From positions 138,942,001 to 139,006,000 of the forward strand of contig OX597815.1 of the NCBI GenBank assembly GCA_951406725.2: a DNA stretch of 64,000 nt. The letters are read 5' to 3'. Both the position numbers and the translations under genes were made by a program. The notes beneath the pieces are model-generated. The model saw only the letters and a program-made list of their open reading frames with translations, searched no databases and was not told the DNA's origin. Source of the DNA: Octopus vulgaris. Taxonomy: Eukaryota. Numbering within the stretch: the stretch's first letter is position 1; each line of letters begins with the position of its first letter. Below, one piece after another: positions 4,414 through 54,080 of the stretch.

Positions 4414-5353
4414 TACATACATAGGTACGAGGCGGTACTATGGTCAGTGAGGTAAATCCGAGGCCTGGTTATTGCTAGTTAAAAACTATATGTACACATG
4501 AATACATGATTTATATGACGTATGTGTTTCCATGTAGTATGCAACACTTCGTGCAAGTGGCCCTATCATAGCTGCATTGCTGCTATTAAGGCATTGAATA
4601 AGGGTACCACATATGGAGAAATTCATGCAACCACCAATATTGGACAATGGTTACCCAACTTCGTAATTCCTATAAAACTATTACAGCGAAAAAAGCTTTC
4701 TTGCACTGCATAACCCCACATCCCAAGCTGCAGCCGATCGTTGTAATAACTTGCCAAAAGGAATCTCAACCCATTTGGCAGCAGCATCTTTTCCTCTATT
4801 ATACAAAGAGAATGGCTGTCTGTGACCTCTCCTTTTGGAGAAAATCTTTGCTTCCGCTGCGCCCTCTACACTATACGCCACATCACATGCACTTGACAGC
4901 TATCCTTCCAATCTATCCTCTAATGTTTCAGGTTCACCGTTTTCATGCATGCATACCATCTACAAAAGTCGCTTCAAAGCAACAAGGCCACAAAAGCTGA
5001 ACATTTTACCTACTAACATCTTTAAACACTGAACACCGGAGTCAAACCTTATACTCACCAAAGTCTTCAATCAGGTATGAACGTTGATTTCAGAAATACA
5101 TTATAATATCTTTCTCAATATGTCGAAGATAATAGAGATAGCCAAAACAACGACGTTTTCCAACACTTCGAATCCCTCTTTCTCTCTCTCTTCTGTCTGT
5201 CTGTCTGTTAGTCTCTCTCTCTGTATCCATCTCTGCTCAACGATCACAAGTTATATGACATGCGTCACACATAATTGTGTCGATAAGGTCGATGATGTCT
5301 ACGCGATGGCTCAACTTCCGGAAATTATTGTGAATTTATAAAGCTAATACTAA

Positions 5354-5985: not shown

Positions 5986-6037
<52 letters not shown>

Positions 6038-6124
6038 TATTAGAGACAAAACCACTATTTTGCAAAACAAACAAGGAAAGACTTAATCAATACATAAAAT
6101 TTTAATAAATAGTCAAAAAAACCG

Positions 6125-6167
6125 CCACTACAATTGTTTCTTGTCTTGATCGACAATCTTCAGGTGA
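6125..6167 (-). ncRNA. Minimal type I hammerhead ribozyme (inverted copy)
   Basis: Minus strand: UCAC-CUGAAGA-UUGUC gaucaa GACAA-GAAAC aauu GUA-GUGG. Confidence 0.75.
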
Positions 6168-6187
6168 ACTATTAATATCTATCTATC

Positions 6188-6279
<92 letters not shown>

Positions 6280-6330
6280 AAATATTAGGGAATAAATCCA
6301 AATTTACAGGGAAAAAATCAGATTTGAAGT

Positions 6331-6373
6331 CCACCTGAAGATTGTCGATCAAGACAAGAAACAATTGTAGTGG
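6331..6373 (+). ncRNA. Minimal type I hammerhead ribozyme
   Basis: CCAC-CTGAAGA-TTGTC gatcaa GACAA-GAAAC aatt GTA-GTGG: complete core, stem I CCAC/GTGG, stem II 5 bp, palindromic stem III; predicted cleavage after 6369. Confidence 0.8.
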
Positions 6374-6548
6374 CGGTTTTTTTGACTATTTATTAAAATT
6401 TTATGTATTGATTAAGTCTTTCCTTGTTTGTTTTGCAAAATAGTGGTTTTGTCTCTAATAATATTTTATAATATTTTACTATAAAATTGGATTTAATCCT
6501 AAATCTGATTTTTTCCCTGTAAATTTGGATTTATTCCCTAATATTTAT

Positions 6549-18728: not shown

Positions 18729-18761
<33 letters not shown>

Positions 18762-18763
18762 AT

Positions 18764-18972
18764 AGGGAGAGTTCACGAAAATAACAAAAGACGAAGACAG
18801 GTGGTGTGCAAAACAAACAGGTGTATTAATATAACGCTCAGGAATAGAAAAAGGCTTTTACGTTTCGAGCCTAAGCTCTTCTACAGAAAGGGACACAGAA
18901 AAAACAAGGAGAGAAACAAGGAGAGAAAAAAGGAGAGAAGAAAATGTGTGTAGTGGCTAACGATCTATCATG
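18764..18972 (-). mobile_element. Short dispersed element with an HHR-like motif (copy 1)
   Basis: Homologous to 59679-59857; motif at 18855-18890. Confidence 0.75.
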
Positions 18973-19077: not shown

Positions 19078-19401
<324 letters not shown>

Positions 19402-19421: not shown

Positions 19422-19457
<36 letters not shown>

Positions 19458-19490
19458 AAACTTGAACGACGATTTAACAAAATTCCTGTA

Positions 19491-19570
19491 TTCTGGACAT
19501 GGTTTCGAAGGCTGCATATTCCTAATTTCGAAGGAATAAGGGTGCATTATGCCGCCTTCTCATCAGGAAA
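19491..19570 (-). ncRNA. Type I hammerhead (left-arm copy)
   Basis: Minus strand: UUUUC-CUGAUGA-GAAGGC...GCCUUC-GAAAC cau GUC-CAGAA; first stem I pair mismatched. Confidence 0.65.
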
Positions 19571-19717
19571 AACAAGGAACTTATGTCAGCATCAAGATGA
19601 ACAAAAACTCTTAGATGACTGCCCACACGGAATCCATAACGATAATGAGTGTGGGATTCCGTGTGGGCATTCATCTAAGAGTTTTTGTTCATCTTGATGC
19701 TGACATAAGTTCCTTGT

Positions 19718-19802
19718 TTTTCCTGATGAGAAGGCGGCATAATGCACCCCTTATTCCTTCGAAATTAGGAATATATGCAGCCTTCGAAACATATGTCGAG
19801 AA
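19718..19802 (+). ncRNA. Canonical type I hammerhead ribozyme
   Basis: TTTTC-CTGATGA-GAAGGC...GCCTTC-GAAAC atat GTC-GAGAA: perfect core, GUC cleavage triplet at 19795-19797, stem II extended by a further hairpin. Confidence 0.85.
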
Positions 19803-20283
19803 TAAAGGAATTTTGTCGTTCAACTCCATTCTTTCATTTATTTGTATTAAAAAAAACACAAAAATTTCCACACGAAAGCACGTGATCTCTGCCCTTGGCA
19901 TGTAGCTTCAACCATGTTTTTCTGACGTGAATTTGCTACCCAGGTATCGGTTAACCGAATTATCCATACTAAGATAATTCATTCAACTACTTAAATATAT
20001 ATATATATATACATATATGAGTGCACGCGCGTGTTTGCATGTGTAAGATGTCTAATTTGCGCCCAATCTCCAGGTTTTACTGCAGGGGTGTGATGCCTGC
20101 ATAATCGAAGATTAATTATAGGCACTGAAACGAACGAGCACTTTATATTATAAAAATACATATATAACGAATAGGAGAAAATGTATACATAAAGGAAGGT
20201 ATATATAGCAGCAAGTCTGGGATTGTCGGAAATAAGAAATGATCTTAATAATTGAGATGTTGATAGATACACGCCAATTTAAA

Positions 20284-20610: not shown

Positions 20611-22066
20611 GAAAATTTTAATGTTGAGTTTGGTCTCCTTCAGAGCTTTTCTAAATCTACGGGCTAGCTCCCCATGGGCTGTGGCCTCTACAAAATCACT
20701 CCTTGATATTTGACGGTTTTATACTACGTGTTCGTCCTGTTTGCTTTGCCACAAGTTCTTTGTATTCTATTCCATTCTTTGTTTCTATATCTAGGGCAGG
20801 TACCACTATCCCACTCCCCCGCGTACATTTAGAAAAGCTCTGAAGGAGACCAAACTTAACATTAAAATTGTTGAACAGCCAGGGAACTCCATCAGATCAC
20901 AACTATGTAGGACGTACACCTTTAAGAATACCATATGCACCAATGATAACTGCATTGTATGTAGGATTAGCCCTGGCATTAACTGTAGAACTCGAAATGT
21001 AGTTTACAGCATAAGGTGCACAGAAGGTGCTTGTAAAGACATGAACATGACGTACATAAGGGAGACGTGTAGGAGCATTGCAGAACGAATAAATTAACAT
21101 CTAAGACAATATGACGACAGAAAACAGTCCTCCATACTCTACCAACATGCCAAAGACCAATATGGAGGTAACTTGGGTCACCTTGACATCCACATCTTAT
21201 CCAAGCACCCAAAAGACCCAACAATCAGACAAATACGGGAGTACGTCCTTATAAATGAAACCTCCCCAATGCTAAATAGGAAATATGCATAGTAAATACC
21301 ATACCTCCATACCCACAGTTTACACAAGTAGAGTAGAATAGTTAGTGGATGGTTAGTTAGTGGATGGTTAGATAAATGTATGTATGTGTGGGTGTGAGTG
21401 TGTGTATGCACCTTTTTTTCATGTATGTAAGCATATAGATATGAAAATAAACAGATACATACAGACGGATAGGTACGTAGGCTATAGGAACAGACACATA
21501 TGGAGACACGGATCTACACATATAAAGATGCACATCCATACATACAGACATGGTACATAGTTGCATAACACAAACTCACACAGACATGCACACACAAGGA
21601 GACAGAGGTGCATACATATACAAACACATACTCACACACACATGCATATACACAAGCACGGACATGCAAGCACATAAATATACAAGATACGAACATACAG
21701 ATGCACACACATACATAACTATATACATATGCATACACACACATATATACATACACATGTAAACACACACACGCATACATACGTACATGCTTGCATGTAT
21801 AGGCACACACACTGACCCACAATCATGCGCACCAACAAACAAAAAGGAACGCAGTGTAAATAACGGACAGTCAAAACTATTGAAAAGGTTGCAAGACGCA
21901 ACGAAAATTTTGGGAAAATAAAAATAAGAAATTTCTCCGAGACACCTGATGAAGGCTGGAGGGTATATCAGACGAAACTTTGTGTTAACAACAACCAAAC
22001 TGAGGACAAATATCCGTCAAATGTAAATAATGTACATAATTCCTCATCTCTTAAATATAGAACTGT
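20611..22066 (+). mobile_element. 5'-truncated Penelope-like element with an inverted 5' segment
   Basis: Plus frame 20831-21292 (no ATG, one internal stop) reads RKALKETKLNIKIVEQPG...CRTRNVVYSIRC...YIRETCRSIAERIN*HL...RQIREYVLINETSPMLNRK, a GIY-YIG endonuclease. 20611-20826 encodes the upstream part on the minus strand. An HHR-bearing terminus lies at 21930-22066. Confidence 0.85.
21942..21985 (+). ncRNA. Degenerate type I hammerhead at a Penelope 3' end
   Basis: ACAC-CTGATGA-a-GGCTG...CAGAC-GAAAC TTT-GTGT; one stem II mismatch and an altered stem III. Confidence 0.6.
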
Positions 22067-27719: not shown

Positions 27720-29450
27720 TGATATAACCTAAATTTGAGACACCAGCAAAAGAAAAAATAAAGATAGACTTTTTTTTCCATTCCAAAGAAAAAAAGATTT
27801 TATTCATACAAATATACAACCGATGAGTTTAAAGTACCAGTAATGATAACGTCGTTGACAGGGAGAACATAATCATGTTTTAAACAATAAGCTTGGCAGG
27901 ATCGAGAAAGGTAATTTGTGGATCATATCCCGCTTTGGATAATGCAGTATTGTAATGGTTAGAGTGAGAGTTAAATATATCACTATTAGATGACAATTTA
28001 GAAATTCTTAGGGAAATATTTTTAACTAATGATTTTATTATATTTGGGGGATTATTAGATGACTTAGTTACATATCTAGTGATTTCGCCTTCTTTTCTAA
28101 ATGGATAATGTAGCTTTGAATTAAGGTTTAAGGTAACATCTAGGAAATTAACTAATTAGTGCCAGGTTCGTAAGTAATGCTTAGGTTAAATTCTTTAAAG
28201 AATTTATTAATTTTCATTTTAATCCTTTCAATACTTGATTTACTATTGCTAGGTACAACGAACAAAGTATCATCCCTATATAGACCACCTTGTAACTCAG
28301 GGATATCCCTATTTATGCATTTTAATAAGTATGCCCCTACTAGATTCGTTATCTCAGCTGAATCACTAGAGCCCATAGGTATATCAAAATTATTAGGGAT
28401 ATCCGCCCTAGTTCATAATTTCCCTTCAAATTCAATGATAGTTTTTCTAGCTAATAGGATTATGTCAATTTCTTCTTTAGGTATAAGAGAGCGATTCATA
28501 GCAAAAATAAGCGATTTTAGTAGAATGGGGGATATACTAGAATAATAATTAATTTTACTTTTATAGTCAACTAGATTAACCTCACTATAATCTTGAAATT
28601 GCCTCTTTCCCCAAATCTATTCTAATTTTAACATTTAATACCATTCCCCCAGTTATAAAATACGATACCTTCTATAAATTAGATGAGGTTTTGTTCCCCT
28701 ACCCTTTGTAAAAGAATTTACTTGACCTCTGGACATTGACCTAGATTTTTTCTCACCACATAAAAATAAATAGCTTTCTGTTCTCTTCATGTATTTTTTC
28801 TGTAACTAACTTAAACCCCATTTACAGTATTCTTTCACATCCCCTTACCTAAATTCCTACTAAAAAATTCTGATGGCTTTCAGTTGAAAGTAAGGTTTGG
28901 TCAGTTAGTAGCTGACCTACTACCTCATATGTTCCTAAGAATTTATTGATCTTTCTACATTGACCTAAATTTTTTGTCACCACATAAATAAATTGACCCT
29001 TTGTTCTAGTGACAATCTGTTCTTATTTTACATCTCCTCAATTTTCCTCTTCTTTTCTTCAACTAACTTGAATTCTTGGCCTGCCCTTACCCCTATCCTT
29101 ATAACTAAAGAAATTTTCTTACAACAGTCAGTTGTAAACAAGATTTTGGTCAGTTGGCATCCAAACTACACTACCTCGTGTTCCTAAGATTCATATCTAC
29201 ATCTTTATCTGTATATTTACCTTCCCTAAGGTGTTATTAATTGTTTTGAGAACTTTATATTATTGGAAAACCTATATAAAATTAGCTGAAGATTACTCGG
29301 CATCTTAAATCTGCTGTAATATTTACAGCTTTTAATAAAATGTTGTAGTATGAAACAATTGTAAAAAATTACCGGATCCATTCTTGTTGCTTATTTTTGA
29401 TTATAATCACCCCGCATATTTTTATGGGTAACACCATCAAAAATTCTGGT
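27720..29450 (-). mobile_element. Penelope-like RT fragment
   Basis: ORF 28152..28376 MGSSDSAEITNLVGAYLL...GGLYRDD, followed by NFLDVTLNL and thumb remnants; a degenerate HHR (CTGAAGA...GAAACAATTGTA) on the plus strand at 29286-29363. Confidence 0.85.
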
Positions 29451-32569: not shown

Positions 32570-33859
32570 CGAGGGACGTTCAATAAGTAATGCCTCTGAC
32601 CTACTTGCAGTTGTTTGATCTAGCTGCAATTTTGCATGTGCAAATATTCATACATATACAGATTAAGTGGCAAATTACAGCTCTGAACTGATTGTGGTTT
32701 CTGATTTACAGTTGTTTGAACTGAGTCAAGTGTGAAATGGAGCCTGTTGAGTGTCGAGCAGTGATCCGGTTTTTGTATTTGAAAGGACGCACACCACGGG
32801 AGACTTTTGATGAAATGAAAGTAACTTATGGTGATGATGCCCCATCATATGACCTTGTAAAACGCTGGCACCGTGAATTCAAACATGGTCGGAACTCGGT
32901 GGAAACAGCTCACAGATTTGGTCACCCCCTTCTGCCATGGTTGAGGCATCTGTCCGTCAAGTTGAGGCTGCCATTTTGGAAGATCGACGCATAACTATTC
33001 GCCAAATAAACCATGAGGTCAAGATTAGTACCGGGTCTGTGGAAACTGTCATTCGTGACCATTTGCATAAGCAAAGGTGTCTGCCAGATGGATTCCCAGG
33101 TTGCTCATACCTTTCCAGAAACAAGAACGCGTCGAGTGCTCGAGGATGAATTTGGAGATGTGCCAAGAAGATGAGTCAAAATTTTTCAAAAGACTGATTA
33201 CACAGGATGAAACCTGGATCCATCACTATGATACAGAGACCAAAGCCCAGTCAACGCAGTGGAAGCACCGTGACTCACCTCCTCCAAAGAAGGCAAGGGT
33301 GCATCCCTCCGCTTGCAAGGTCATGCTCACAGTCTTCTGGGACCAGGACGGTGTAGATTTGACAGATTTCCTGGCAAAGGGTATCACAATTACAGGAGCC
33401 TATTATGCTTCACTTTTCAGGAAATTAAGAGAAGTTATCAAAATCAAGAAGCGGGGCAAGATCAGCAAAGGCATCCTCCTCCTGCAGGACAACGCTCTGG
33501 TCCACAACTCGCGTGTTGGCAGATCAGAAGCACAGGCGTGCGGCTATGAACTCCTCCCCCATCCCCCTACTCTCCTGACCTTGCACCCTCTGATTTTCAC
33601 CTCTTCCCAGCCATGAAGCTGTTTTTGAAATGAAAGCGTATCCCAGATGATGCAGCCTTGATTTCTGAAGTCACGTCGTGATTGGAGGACCAAGCTGGGG
33701 TCTTCTACGAAAACGCTCTCCAGATCTGCATCAAACGATGTGAGAAATGCGTAACTCTGGATGGTTCCTATGTAGAAAAGGGCTAATAACTGTACCAAGT
33801 TTCGTTGCTCTACTGCAATGGGAAGTGGGTCAGGGGCATTACTTATTGAACGCCCCTCG
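32570..33859 (+). mobile_element. Full-length mariner DNA transposon (copy 1)
   Basis: TIRs CGAGGG(G/A)CGTTCAATAAGTAATGCC(C/T)CTGACC, TA on both flanks, 1290 bp. Confidence 0.97.
32737..33786 (+). pseudogene. Mariner D,D34D transposase, frameshifted
   Basis: HTH N-terminus, WIPRLL, TQDETW, LQDNA and SPDLAPSDF split over several frames, with internal stops. Confidence 0.95.
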
Positions 33860-34210
33860 TAGGTTGAATGTGGTGATCCGGCCTTCTGCATGTATCGCAA
33901 AACTTGCATTGTAGTACTCTGTTATAATTCTGTTACCATATAAGGGGCAATGTGGCACTCTTAATTTGAGAGACTGCTCCTTAACGTTGAGTATGCAATG
34001 TGACACTCTGAAGTTAATCGTCTATTACTCATTATATTATGGTACATTAACGTATTTCTTTTCGCGTTATTCTACGTTCCGAAATTCATTTCTTGTTTAC
34101 ATGATTTCATTTGAGAGTGTGTTTGTGTTTGTACCTATACATATTCATACACACACACACACACATATATATCTATATATCTATATATATATATATATAC
34201 ACGTATACAT

Positions 34211-34477: not shown

Positions 34478-34810
34478 ATTTACATAGGCTGCTTTGAAAA
34501 AAATGCCTGAATAACCACTGAATAACCACTTTTCTTCTTTTAGACTTAGGCAAAATCCAACAGTACCTTATTATCTTTGAAAATCTGGGCACTCAAGGAC
34601 AGTAATAGTAAATTTGGCCTAAAATGGGATATAGTCCATAGAGCTCAGCCATACAAAAGTAGCCGATACTGATGTGAACTATGTTGTATGGAGATTTATG
34701 AAATATTTAAATATAGTGATAAGCGAAAACTAATTAATAATAAATCAGACTTCAGAGCATCTTGTTTACATAGGATTAACGGTACCTTCAAATACTTTAA
34801 AAGCAAATAA
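34478..34810 (+). mobile_element. Penelope-like GIY-YIG C-terminal fragment
   Basis: IYIG, NHFSSFRL, IWALKDSNSKFGLKWDIVHRAQPY..*CELCCMEIYEI...LINNKSDFRASCLH; same layout as ORF 52006..52443. Confidence 0.75.
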
Positions 34811-36779: not shown

Positions 36780-38007
36780 AAGATCTTTAGAGAGACACCA
36801 TTTTATGTATGGTTGTACTGCAAAATGGATGCAACACAACATGTTTCACGGAGAGTCTCACCCAAATGTCTCACTCAAAAGGGTCGAAACAATCGTCGTA
36901 CAAAATAAAGACGAAAACCAGACCCATCTTTCGTTCCCTTAATCAATTATATATATATATAAAATTATAATGAATAAATATTTATTATACAAATCTCTAG
37001 CTAAAGTCGTAAACATCAACTAAGTTATACATGTTTATATATCAATCTGTGTGTTATGTTTCCTTCTATATGTACAAACAGACGAAAGCATGATAACGTC
37101 GATTTACTTTGGCCTATATACCTTTAACCTGTAAGAAAATGCTCTTTTAATTTTCTTTTATAAACATGGCGAAAATATGTGGATTACTTGTATGTTATAT
37201 TCTTGCAGTTTAAATTTATAGATCTAACATTCCGTATGTCGTAAGAGCATTAATACAAGCACAAGACACTTCTTTGTAACGGACAAGTAATGGGTGGGCT
37301 TGAGTATTCGTGCGCGAGTTGGCCTTTACGTTGGCTTCCATTGAAAATTAGTTACAATAGATCACTCTGTCAGATAGCAGGTGACTTGCAAGAAATTTAC
37401 CTTACACTGTTTACACACACACACACAGAGGCATACACAATGCATACACATATGCACACACAACAACAACCAGACACACACGTACAGACACACATACACA
37501 CCTATTGTTTACGTTATAACAAAAGAGAAGTGAATATTAAAATATGTCAAACGACATAGTTTAAAGACAATATTTAAGAAAGCTGTAATATAGGGACACA
37601 AACGACACTAAGCATGCTGGTTGTTTGAACATCAAAGAAATTATGTATTTATACAGGAACGAAAGAAAAATCTTTAGTTCCTCATTAACAATTATGAATG
37701 AGATATTCTCTTCACGGATTGGTTGACAGAAATAGTAGTTTAGAAAAACATATTTGAAAATATTAGATTCATTCTAGAGAAACATAATTGAACTTCATTA
37801 TGTTACACATCTTATGGTATATCATTTAAAGAAAAGAAGGAGCTGGATTCGTAGGGGAAAAGTATGTTTTTAGCAACAAGAGACGAGCTATAATTCCGTC
37901 ACAACAAAATTCAAATCATTAGGCTCCTTTCTGTAAGGTTCCTTTTGTGAAGGAATTTCTCTTGTGTATGCATTTAGAGAGGTTTACATCCATCCAATTT
38001 ATACGTA

Positions 38008-39273
38008 CGAGGGGCGTTCAATAAGTAATGCCCCTGATCCACTTCCCATAGCAGTAGAGCAACGAAACGTGGCACAGTTATTAGTCCTTTTCTACATAGG
38101 AACCACCCAGTGTTACGCATTTCTCCCATCATTTGATGCAGCTCTGAAGACCGTTTTTGTAGAAGACACCAGCCTGGTCCTCCAACCACGACGTGACTTC
38201 AAAAATCAAGGCTGCATCATCTGGGAAACGCTTTCCTTTCAAAAACAGCTTCATGGCTGGGAAGAGGTGAAAATCAGAGGGTGCAAGGTCAGGAGAGTAG
38301 GGGGATGGGGGAGGAGTTCATAGCCATACGCCTGTGCTTCTGATCTGGCGACACATGAGTTGTGGCCCAGAGCGTTGTCCTGCAGGAGGAGGATGCCTTT
38401 GCCGATCTTGCCCCGCCTCTTGATTTTGATAGCTTCTCTTAATTTCCTCAAAAGTGAAGCATAATAGGCTCCTGTAATTGTGGCACCCTTTGCCAGGAAA
38501 TCTGTCAAATCTACACCGTCCTGGTCCCAGAAGACTGTGAGCATGACCTTGCAAGCGGAGGGATGCACCCTTGCCTTCTTTGGAGGAGGTGAGTCACGGT
38601 GCTTCCACTGCATTGACTGGGCTTTGGTCTCTGGATCATAGTGATGGACCCAGGTTTCATCCTGTGTAATCAGTCTTTTGAAAAATTTTGACTCATCTTC
38701 TTGGCACATCTCCAAATTCATCCTCGAGCAATCGACGCGTTCTTGCTTCTGGAAAGGTGTGAGCAACCTGGGAATCCATCTGGCAGACACCTTTTGCATA
38801 TGCAAATGGTCATGAATGATAGTTTCCACAGACCCGATACTAATCTTGACCTCATGGGCTATTTGGCGAATAGCAGCCTCAACTTGACGGACAGATGCCT
38901 CATCAATGGCAGAAGGGGGCGACCAGATCTGGGAGCTGTTTCCACAGAGTTCCAACCAGGTTTGAATTCACGATGCCAGTGTTTTACAAGGTCATATGAT
39001 AGGGCATTATCACCATAAGTTACTTTCATTTCATCAACAGTCTCCCGTGGTGTGCATCCTTTCAAATACAAAAACCGGATCACTGCTCGACACTCAACAG
39101 GCTCCATTTCACACTTGACTCAGTTCAAACACCTGTAAATCAGAAACCACAATTAGTTCAGAGTTGTAATTTGCCACCTAATCTATAGAGATATAAATAA
39201 TTGCACATGCAAAAGTTCAGCTAGATCAAACAACTGCAAGTGGGTCAGGGGCATTACTTATTGAACGCCCCTC
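38008..39273 (-). mobile_element. Full-length mariner DNA transposon (copy 2)
   Basis: Same TIRs as copy 1, TA flanks, one terminal base lost; 24-nt in-frame deletion relative to copy 1. Confidence 0.97.
38081..39107 (-). pseudogene. Mariner transposase, frameshifted
   Basis: ORFs 38859..39107 and 38251..38955, plus a C-terminus in another frame. Confidence 0.95.
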
Positions 39274-51399: not shown

Positions 51400-54080
51400 A
51401 ACGGCGTAGTAAAAATTATTAAGAATACAAGTGTTTTACAAAAAAAGATGAATAAAGTAAAGTCTTCCGAAGAGCGAATAAAAAACATCGTAGCGTTGAG
51501 GTTGGAATATTTCAAAACACAAATGTAAATAATCCAAGAGAATAAGTAATCCTGATTAGGGAAACTGTTAGTGATAATCCCCTTACGGCCGTCCGTTTCA
51601 AGGGTACAGTAATCCATTAATTTTAAGGGTATTTTCACTCCAAAAATCCATGAGAGAGTATATTATTTAGAATTCATATTTCGTGCGACTTTGTACTGGG
51701 TAGATGAGATTTAGTTATACAGGGTGGTGAAGTTGTTAACAGGAGGAGGAAGTATCATAATAAAGAATTATGGGAAATGTAATTTAGAGAATTTATAAAT
51801 GTTAAGAAGATAATAATTGGTCAATATGAGGTTACAGGATGGCAATAGTATAGAAATTAATCGAAGTATTGATAATTAAAAATTAAATGGTTATTTCATC
51901 TAGGTTTACGAAAATATTTAAATGTTGAATGGTATCTATGGTTACAAGGAAATATAGCATCCAAGAAATTATTTAATGATGTAGGCCCATGTCGACGAAG
52001 TATATTTATGGCTCTCGAATACACAATTTACATACACACGTAATTGTATTGTATGGCGGTGCTTCTGGTATTATTGACCAAGATAATGTGTATTGTATAT
52101 TTTTTAGTTTAAGTTCTTGTATATACGCGGTTAGCGTTGTAGAAGATTTATATTTTGCGTTAGTGAAAGAGTTCAAACGGTTCCGATACCTACGTTTAAA
52201 GTCTACAGTGCTTCCTATATGAATTCTTAACCCCTGTGTAGCAGGGATTTCTACAGAACAACTATATACTACGTTATTACGTAAACAGGAACCGGCTAAA
52301 GGACATAACACCTTTATTCGACATGTTCCCCACCCCCACATCATTATTAATTTTCCAGTTATTAGAGGGGTTGACCTGTGAGGGTTGACCTGGCGTAATG
52401 TTAACGCTAGAGCTATTGCCAGTTTGGGGATTATAGAGTTCATTTTAAAGATTTGTGTAGATAAATTTCTTAAGTCTGAGTTTAGATCTATTGATGGATG
52501 CTATGATGGAACCTAAATTCGGAGTAGTTGAGTACGACAATTTTACAGATAATTTATTAAAAATAGAATAATATTTATGATTTTTAAGAAACAATTTTTT
52601 CAGTATGTTAAAAAACAATTTGAGTAAAAGATTTGACCTGAAGAGAGAAGGGCGGGGCAAACCATATAATTCCACATTTCCTAGATTTTGATATTTTGGT
52701 CTGAAATGTAAATAATCCAAGAGAATAAGTAATCCTGATTATATTTATGTGAATTCCCAAATGCCATGTTATTAATTCGGGCTTCATTCATACAGTGTTT
52801 TTAATTGGTTTACCTAAATTGGAGGTCGTATTATTAGATTGTGAGCCAGTTCCATTCAAGATATTTGACATTTTTTGTCTGAAGAATTGTATCAGGGATG
52901 TAAAGTATTTCTTTTTTAAAAACACTTAACTTTAAGGTTTAGTTATAATACGGAGCCTGGGTGTTAAATATCTCCTCGTTCGCCGATAAGTTTGAGATTC
53001 TAATTGGGATAGCCGTTAGCATGCCATCGAGGGTTGATCTAGGATGATTAGAAAGAACGTTTAGGTACTGAAGGGTTTGATTTGGTTTCCTATATGGATA
53101 GTGGAGATTGATTTTATGATTAAGTGTGACGTGTACAAAATGAGATATATTAAGATTTATTTCCAACACTATATTTAAATTATAATTTTTAAAGAATTTT
53201 ATTAAATTTTCTAAGTGCGTTCAATCTCTAGACGGGAGAAGTTTTTAGTTTCCAAAAGCGTGTCATCTCTATGGAGGCCTCCGGAGATGTTAGGGAAGTG
53301 TTGCTTAATGTTTGACAGAAGAAATAGTCCAACAAGGTTTGTTAATTGAGCTGAATGCGAGGATCTCATTGTTATATCAAGAAGGGTCAGAGTTAGTATT
53401 ACGGGTCCAATTTTTAACATGAAACCTTATAAGGGTCTTTCTAGCAGCCACGATTATGTCTATATGAGATGCAGAAAATGTGATATAGTTTTTGGGCAAA
53501 TGATAATGCTTCACTCGGTAATTTAGGTGTTACTGAAACGTAATAATCGAAAATATCAAATTGGATGAATTTAATATGATGTTTGCCCCTGAGGGAATGA
53601 AACCATGTAACTACGTCACCAGTTGAGTTCCAGAGGAGGAGCTCTACGTTCTCTTTAATTTTGGGTAACACTCTATCTAAAATGGTTTTACTAATGATGC
53701 TTGAATCCGACAGAAGGTTTAGCTTGAAATTTGGGTTTACGGTCCTTCAGTATTAAACGTGGTGTTCTCGGAACGTATGGTTCAGTTCTGTTGAGTAGGT
53801 CCAAATCCTTTATTAATTTATATGTTTTATTAATATCATTCAATGCGTTTGCGTGAGTGTGTTTGTAATTAGTGTTAATGTCTTTTTGTAGTAAATTATG
53901 ATAGGTTTCGATAGATAATGCATAGAGGTTCCTAGTTTTATCAATAAACGCATGTACATATTATGAGGCATCTATTTTAGATATGGTTTCAGAGAGTTGT
54001 TTTTGAAATAGGTTAGTATATTTAGAATATTTTATGTCTTTTGTCATATTGCAAGTCTTTTATAAATATGGTGCAAATGA
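51400..54080 (-). mobile_element. Penelope-like retroelement, RT plus GIY-YIG, decayed
   Basis: FIQFDIFDYYVS, SAQLTNLVGL..GGLHRDD, PYRKPN..SNHP, IIWFAPPFS, VKLSYSTTPN, CPLAGSC..NVVY..HIGST..FKRRY..CKLCIRE. Confidence 0.92.

What the first reader, a model, noticed from the sequence alone, without database searches (positions are those of the whole stretch)
19462..19823. 360-bp hairpin element with mirror-image canonical hammerheads
Seen: arms of about 170 bp pair almost perfectly, each with a CUGAUGA/GAAAC/GUC ribozyme pointing outward. Any read-through transcript is a long rod in which the ribozyme competes with its own antisense, reminiscent of viroid-like ambisense RNAs. Inference: a head-to-head pLTR dimer or a self-processing non-autonomous unit, and also a strong dsRNA substrate for ADAR or Dicer.
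Basis: partly seen in the sequence, partly recalled or inferred. Interest (0 to 1): 0.75.

Follow-up and report, generated by a model that had tools for sequence, protein, structure and literature searches.

The report
Head-to-head stump of Penelope retrotransposon
The hairpin is real and is one of at least 1,800 short end pieces of a Penelope-like jumping gene; it likely arose when the element's RNA was copied twice, once into each strand of a cut TA repeat, and its two ribozyme motifs are predicted to be silenced in the hairpin, so it is ordinary in kind and likely not a viroid-like self-spreading unit.

Summary
The hairpin is real. It is part of a 537-bp insertion (about 19456-19992) between (TA)n tracts: two 5'-truncated terminal repeats (pLTRs) of a Hydra-clade Penelope-like element, head to head, one with a ~145-nt tail. 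Full-length relatives encode RT plus GIY-YIG endonuclease. At least 1,836 copies exist. Of 60 position-ordered copies, 42 have an inverted arm ending near +55 (from the cleavage site) and a sense arm ending near +200; 22 form hairpins, only 7 hold two whole ribozymes. The loop is not constant: the commonest junction occurs 9 times, on different haplotypes. So the palindrome is likely built anew at each insertion, not moved as a unit. Arms pile up at -160..-141, beside a predicted promoter start, not at the ribozyme cut. The left hammerhead here is damaged, and on either strand the antisense arm is transcribed first, so the rod is predicted to block the ribozyme rather than compete with it. Cleavage, expression and editing are not shown. 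Inverted pLTR plus tail is published, and this scan noted the same pattern many times on other DNA, also in this genome. Modest extras: the long tail, and loss of the Cys linker with (TA)n targeting kept.

The parts
19426..19454 (.). left (TA)n target tract
   Evidence: sequence; 57 of 60 tail ends of the family are followed by >=(TA)4 within 30 nt
19456..19652 (-). inverted, 5'-truncated pLTR copy (family positions about +50 back to -158 from the hammerhead cleavage site); outer end altered in this copy
   Evidence: BLAST to family reference
19483..19579 (-). left type I hammerhead motif, damaged: CUGAUGA at 19566-19560, predicted cut 3' of 19496; 1-nt loss in stem III loop, G>C at first stem I pair
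   Evidence: core-helix probability ~2e-5 as a monomer
19637..19653 (.). unpaired loop and junction; made of the extra length of the inverted arm; holds a predicted initiator TCATT (minus strand, 19648-19644); the predicted TATA and CRE lie further upstream in the family and are absent from this copy
   Evidence: promoter reading is inference
19654..19992 (+). sense, 5'-truncated pLTR copy with tail (family positions about -141 to +201)
19710..19810 (+). right type I hammerhead motif: CUGAUGA 19723-19729, GAAA 19786-19789, palindromic ACAUAUGU stem III, predicted cut after C19797
   Evidence: core letters vary 1.5% vs 6.2% elsewhere over 188 distinct arms, compensatory changes at 3 stem pairs
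19848..19992 (+). unpaired tail (~145 nt); in full-length copies it runs on into the ORF
19995..20018 (.). right (TA)n target tract; no target-site duplication can be read inside the microsatellite
   Evidence: sequence

Best explanation
The hairpin is a head-to-head pair of truncated terminal repeats of a Hydra-clade Penelope-like retrotransposon, likely made during one insertion in which both nicked strands of a (TA)n tract primed reverse transcription of the element's RNA. Shown: family identity, fixed outer ends (about +55 and +200), variable inner ends, TA flanks, arms mostly of one haplotype. Inferred: the element protein nicks both strands; one cDNA starts near +200 and the other near +55 on the 5' part of the mRNA; each stops at random or runs off the RNA 5' end at about -150; the two 3' ends join by short homology, or one snaps back and anneals to the other; host repair fills in. 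The hammerhead is a passenger of the pLTR and is predicted to be blocked in read-through RNA of the hairpin.
For: Sequence continues upstream into a GIY-YIG ORF and the tail continues into the ORF start. Motif counts fall from 1,836 at the tail end to 935 at the ribozyme core to 125 at about -205. In 60 position-ordered loci 44 have an adjacent inverted piece, 42 ending at +47..+69; 22 overlap the sense arm and 20 do not, which fold-back of one cDNA cannot give. In this copy the inverted arm reaches further upstream (-158) than the tailed arm (-141). The hot junction occurs in both loop orientations and on several haplotypes. 27 of 42 junctions show 1-10 nt overlap. Arms agree at 16 diagnostic sites (37 discordant vs ~234 expected), yet L100 joins two subfamilies. 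This copy's mirrored variant is shared with L264, which has the same three-variant haplotype. 14 of 28 arms at risk end at -160..-141 vs 0.098 per 20 nt elsewhere; 3 of 66 at the cleavage site. TGACGTCA -193, TATAA -180, TCATT -154. Full-length copies have the same end pairing (L244, L247). In vitro, a Poseidon PLE cuts and extends both strands, starts RT at two internal sites that define the tail, and does not need ribozyme cleavage (PMC11167929).
Against: Near-symmetric junctions are in excess (11 of 42 within 15 nt vs 2.9 by permutation, p=2e-4), so the inner ends are not fully independent; snap-back or a shared broken RNA end must contribute. Central deletions after insertion could also vary the junction and were not excluded. 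The -150 bin was chosen after seeing the data, a 3-bp mini inverted repeat lies there too, and no RNA 5' end was observed. D. virilis Penelope has an internal TATA-less promoter (PMC2377424), so the TATA call is a guess. BLAST over-extension inflates the microhomology count. The tail is ~145 nt, not the 30-40 bp described. No empty site was compared. None of the 5 long copies translated has an unbroken ORF.
Confidence: 0.72

Rival explanations
1. One cDNA, primed at the tail end, folds back on itself at a short inverted repeat and copies itself (self-priming), with later deletions giving the asymmetric forms.
For: Excess of near-symmetric junctions; a CAT-N7-ATG mini-hairpin at the hot junction; arms share haplotype; self-priming is proposed in PMC3846280.
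Against: Cannot give an inverted arm that reaches further upstream than the tailed arm (this copy; 7 of the 11 near-symmetric cases, two of them by 1 nt), 20 non-overlapping pairs, two-subfamily arms (L100), or lone arms ending near +58 without extra events.
Confidence: 0.15
2. A palindromic non-autonomous unit (retrozyme- or viroid-like) is transcribed whole, self-processes and is reinserted as a unit; variable centres are later deletions.
For: A modal size: 6 of 16 head-to-head core pairs are 158-166 bp apart; hundreds of hairpins; conserved ribozyme core.
Against: Exact hot junction only 9 times genome-wide, on different haplotypes; 7 of 60 copies have two whole ribozymes; ribozyme fold ~106 kcal/mol worse than the rod; no tandem short monomers among sampled loci; same architecture in 3.5-kb copies.
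Confidence: 0.06
3. Arms were made from unrelated RNAs and later made alike by arm-to-arm gene conversion.
For: 9 locus-private changes mirrored in both arms vs 0.03 by chance; mirrored and one-arm counts weakly anticorrelated (rho -0.28, p 0.037); L022's mirrored haplotype has no source copy by an exact 20-mer search.
Against: One-arm private changes (0.31% per arm) outnumber mirrored ones (0.10%), so conversion is at most partial; arm haplotypes match the unpaired tail; this copy's mirrored variant exists in another locus.
Confidence: 0.05
4. Assembly or amplification artefact.
For: Long palindromes can be chimeras (general knowledge). No public contig spanned the whole locus.
Against: Arms differ by several changes, ends are fixed by family position, and contigs of four runs of four organism codes hold joined forms of like kind (table 5, three of the four runs).
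Confidence: 0.02

Closest known systems
Hydra-clade Penelope-like elements (Craig et al. 2021, PMC8557442; section 11, passages and supplement rows seen), incl. Hydra-1_Obim
   Same: C-terminal GIY-YIG, DKT motif, RW(K/L) motif, CxxC and CxH around the conserved E and N, hammerhead in pLTR, (TA)n target, inverted 5'-truncated copy and one tail.
   Different: Unit ~3.55 kb (Hydra generally <3 kb); RWL for RWK; CxCX5C linker absent and an Asn-rich linker present; tail ~145 nt. By eye a different family from Hydra-1_Obim (different N-terminus and hammerhead).
EN+ Penelope insertions with inverted pLTR and tail, Adineta vaga (PMC3846280; passages seen)
   Same: Head-to-head inverted pLTR, tail on one end, palindromes at the junction, Asn-rich insertions in the ORF.
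   Different: There the palindromes are read as self-priming on an antisense template; tail 31 bp; few copies; readable TSDs.
Poseidon of Anolis carolinensis, PAc (PMC11167929; parts 1-2 of 4 read)
   Same: AT-rich target, two ends defining a tail near the RNA 5' end, hammerhead in pLTR; in vitro both strands are cut and extended.
   Different: Other clade; its RT starts lie inside the ORF, here the tail ends ~50 nt before the first ATG seen; no biochemistry here.
PLE hammerheads (PMC4209133; part 1 of 4 and passages)
   Same: Type I, short palindromic stem III, predicted to need a dimer; dual motifs 100-700 bp apart on opposite strands already reported in Schistosoma.
   Different: Here stem II is long (11 bp plus a branched loop) and stem I is extended.
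Non-LTR retrozymes (bioRxiv 10.64898/2026.07.22.740005; part 1 of 5 read)
   Same: Type I hammerhead, PLE origin, non-coding.
   Different: Retrozymes are head-to-tail tandems with same-strand ribozymes; this is head-to-head with opposite-strand ribozymes.

Membership tests
EN+ Penelope-like element | single ORF with RT and C-terminal GIY-YIG endonuclease linked to this repeat | tested here: met
   L111: 833-aa frame with YRDD and IY..YIG motifs ending ~690 nt before the cleavage site; Pfam GIY-YIG only weak, E 0.01, below cut-off, none for the whole frame; 681 homologues at E<=1e-10 align over RT and EN
EN+ Penelope-like element | pLTR with optional tail that continues into the element body | tested here: met
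   tail runs into ORF in long copies; length ~145 nt rather than 30-40
EN+ Penelope-like element | inverted 5'-truncated copy at the 5' end | tested here: met
   44 of 60 loci; L244, L247
Hydra clade | RWK and DKT motifs | tested here: met
   DKT exact, RWL for RWK
Hydra clade | no CCHH; CxxC and CxH flanking conserved E and N in EN | tested here: met
   CGVC..E and ..N..RCMH align with relatives
Hydra clade | CxCX5C linker | tested here: not met
   no Cys in the linker in any EN-bearing copy of this family printed (12 distinct strings); present in 9 of 9 aligned relatives; read as a secondary loss
Hydra clade | (TA)n insertion preference | tested here: met
   57 of 60
Hydra clade | placement in the clade on an RT tree with named members | not tested
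   named reference sequences were only seen as text in the supplement
type I hammerhead ribozyme | core CUGANGA / GAAA / UH with stems I-III | tested here: met
   right arm by hand-set fold; core conserved, 3 compensatory pairs, but two stem pairs broken in subfamilies; Rfam no hit; left arm damaged
type I hammerhead ribozyme | self-cleavage | not testable with these tools
   no raw reads offered; no pile-up of copy ends at the cut
non-LTR retrozyme | head-to-tail tandem monomers each with a same-strand hammerhead | tested here: not met
   all 16 close core pairs among the first 100 of 935 hits are head to head (counted by hand)
viroid-like ambisense RNA | circular RNA with ribozymes foldable in both polarities | tested here: not met
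   both polarities predicted locked in the rod; circularity not testable
non-autonomous palindromic unit (MITE-like or retro) | constant centre shared by descent | tested here: not met

The most novel reading that the evidence does not exclude
The ~1,800 stumps are a fossil record of the Penelope insertion reaction: one protein dimer primes both target strands at two sites ~145 nt apart near the 5' end of its own uncleaved mRNA, both cDNAs run off at the pLTR transcription start (about -150), and (TA)n targeting works without the Cys linker thought to mediate it. Hairpins are then partly homogenised arm to arm.
Probability: 0.4. Interest if true: 0.55.

Novelty: new member of a known kind. Interest (0 to 1): 0.3.

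Why it matters
How Penelope-like elements make their inverted and tailed ends is an open question (stated in PMC8557442). This family gives countable predictions: two RT starts, run-off at a promoter start, no use of the ribozyme cut. The loss of the Cys linker with TA targeting kept tests the idea that the linker steers targeting. Hundreds of 100-400-bp hairpins could also feed ADAR or Dicer if transcribed. As a single locus it is ordinary.

Tried and rejected
Rfam: no hammerhead family at gathering or E<=10; only generic miRNA hairpin hits below threshold. Host gene: 99 filtered frames of the window gave only transposase families, so intronic read-through is not shown; short exons would be missed. 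Expression and editing: only contigs were offered and 'RNA' was a guess; three such runs mirrored the DNA profile with no A>G excess; uninformative. Contig depth not used as copy number. A>G bias among mirrored changes traced to subfamily sites; no sign of edited templates. Run-off at the ribozyme cut: not seen. My stem IIb register was mis-set and is ignored. The first 40 hits were biased to the query's shape and were not used for frequencies. Literature: 8 searches found no paper on this family or on two-ended priming of PLE palindromes; the library lacks most subscription papers, and Repbase was not seen. Only the supplement of PMC8557442 was searched; supplements of the others were not seen.

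Full report
Observation. The inverted repeat is centred at 19644.5; self-alignment gives 92% over 345 columns and the fold is far beyond chance (z -34). Both arms hold CUGAUGA, a stem II, GAAAC and GUC, pointing outward. Rfam finds no hammerhead. The right motif is complete, with a palindromic ACAUAUGU stem III and a predicted cut after 19797. The left one has lost a base in loop III and the first stem I pair. Positions below count from the cut; they shift by 2-3 nt between my references.

Extent and family. Comparison with 17 other loci shows the insertion runs from about 19456 to 19992 between (TA)n tracts, with an unpaired tail. Following copies upstream leads through a 3' UTR into a GIY-YIG frame and a near full-length element with RT motifs (L111); the tail continues into the ORF start. 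The unit is about 3.55 kb. The protein has DKT, RWL, CxxC and CxH motifs and aligns with relatives bearing all Hydra-clade marks, but lacks their CxCX5C linker and has an Asn-rich one. Pfam support is weak. None of 5 long copies translated has an unbroken ORF. The host is probably an octopus (earlier scan notes on this genome say so; not tested).

Copy census. Exact motif counts in G000: tail end 1,836, ribozyme core 935, about -205 125; all lower bounds. Among the first 100 listed core hits I counted by hand 16 close pairs at 84 loci, all head to head, 69-1,582 bp apart, 6 of them at 158-166 bp. For frequencies I fetched 60 loci covering the first 62 listed tail-end hits (one skipped, one merged). 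44 of 60 have an adjacent inverted piece, 42 ending at +47..+69; 22 overlap the sense arm, 20 do not; 8 were flagged with two whole ribozymes, 7 after dropping L162, whose sense arm has an internal deletion. Only ~1 kb upstream was seen, and one locus is partly withheld. 57 of 60 tail ends adjoin (TA)n.

The centre is not constant. Inner ends are uncorrelated by rank (rho 0.17, p 0.27). The commonest junction occurs 9 times as an exact 20-mer, in both loop orientations and on several haplotypes. Against full independence, 11 of 42 junctions are symmetric within 15 nt, versus 2.9 by permutation. 14 of 28 arms at risk end at -160..-141, against 0.098 per 20 nt elsewhere (p 8e-8, bin chosen after the fact); the cleavage site shows no excess (3 of 66). 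A TGACGTCA, a TATAA and a TCATT lie at -193, -180 and -154; I read them as CRE, TATA and initiator (labels recalled; inference). This copy stops at -158 and lacks the first two.

Arms share a source. In 64 two-armed copies, mostly picked by similarity, arms disagree 37 times at 16 diagnostic sites where ~234 would be expected from random pairing (sites +53 and +55 left out because they merge with the TA flank). L100 joins two subfamilies, so two templates can be used. This copy's mirrored variant recurs in L264 with the same haplotype. Over 57 copies, 9 locus-private changes are mirrored (0.10%), 0.31% per arm are one-sided and 0.44% lie in the tail; L022's mirrored set has no source copy found. 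Some arm-to-arm conversion is likely but not shown.

Mechanism. Most likely both strands of a (TA)n tract are nicked and each primes a cDNA, one from about +200, one from about +55, usually on RNA of one source. Each stops at random or at the RNA 5' end; the two join by short homology or by snap-back and annealing. Fold-back of the tail-primed cDNA alone cannot give this copy, whose inverted arm reaches further upstream, nor the non-overlapping pairs. The in vitro behaviour of the Anolis element matches these steps (PMC11167929). All steps are inferred from sequence; later central deletion is not excluded.

Ribozyme in context. The core is conserved (1.5% vs 6.2% variation over 188 distinct arms; 3 compensatory pairs; rows are related), so it mattered in source elements. 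In the hairpin the antisense arm comes first on both strands and the hammerhead fold costs ~106 kcal/mol. It is predicted to be blocked. No host exon was found, and expression or editing could not be tested.

Known and novel. Inverted pLTR with one tail is described (PMC3846280 passages; PMC8557442 passages, section 11 and supplement rows), and opposite-strand hammerhead pairs 100-700 bp apart were noted in 2014 (PMC4209133). I formed my reading before opening the scan's notes; 218 earlier findings in at least 38 genomes hold the same words and several reach the same reading; none matched this sequence or place. They are not independent support. Verdict: a new family of a known kind, interest 0.3.

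Noticed in passing
window 6028-6470: A second head-to-head inverted repeat (179-bp arms, 90%) with CUGAAGA motifs at 6163 (-) and 6335 (+) and a (TA)n tract in its centre; probably another PLE family.
   Followed up: partly
window 18756-18960, 20795-21097, 21946, 24376, 29776, 36577, 63921: Further hammerhead-like cores (one with CUGUAGA) and a PLE-like Cys-linker/endonuclease fragment; not related to this family by BLAST.
   Followed up: no
window 27904-28550, 34550-34789, 52009-54047: Decayed Hydra-type PLE coding fragments of other families (tblastn).
   Followed up: partly
window 19196-19400: tRNA-like SINE directly left of the insertion, very high depth in public DNA contigs.
   Followed up: no
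window 32571-33873 and 37994-39273: Two mariner-type transposase copies in inverted orientation, 93-95% alike.
   Followed up: no
window 4417-4558: U4 snRNA match just above gathering score, good 5' half only; likely a pseudogene.
   Followed up: no
L241-L243 (G000 C20, 23.33-23.36 Mb): Array of at least seven long copies of an older subfamily (~75-79% to L111) in tandem and inverted order.
   Followed up: partly
L111, L101, L103, L248 (RT-EN linker): Asn-rich linker and no CxCX5C motif, yet the family inserts in (TA)n; relative P0001 has an Asn-rich linker with the Cys motif kept.
   Followed up: partly
L022 (arms): Four rare changes mirrored in both arms, one in ribozyme core C3, with no source copy found; candidate arm-to-arm conversion.
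   Followed up: partly
family positions -237 to -257: Possible second pile-up of 5' ends (5 of the few arms that reach it).
   Followed up: no
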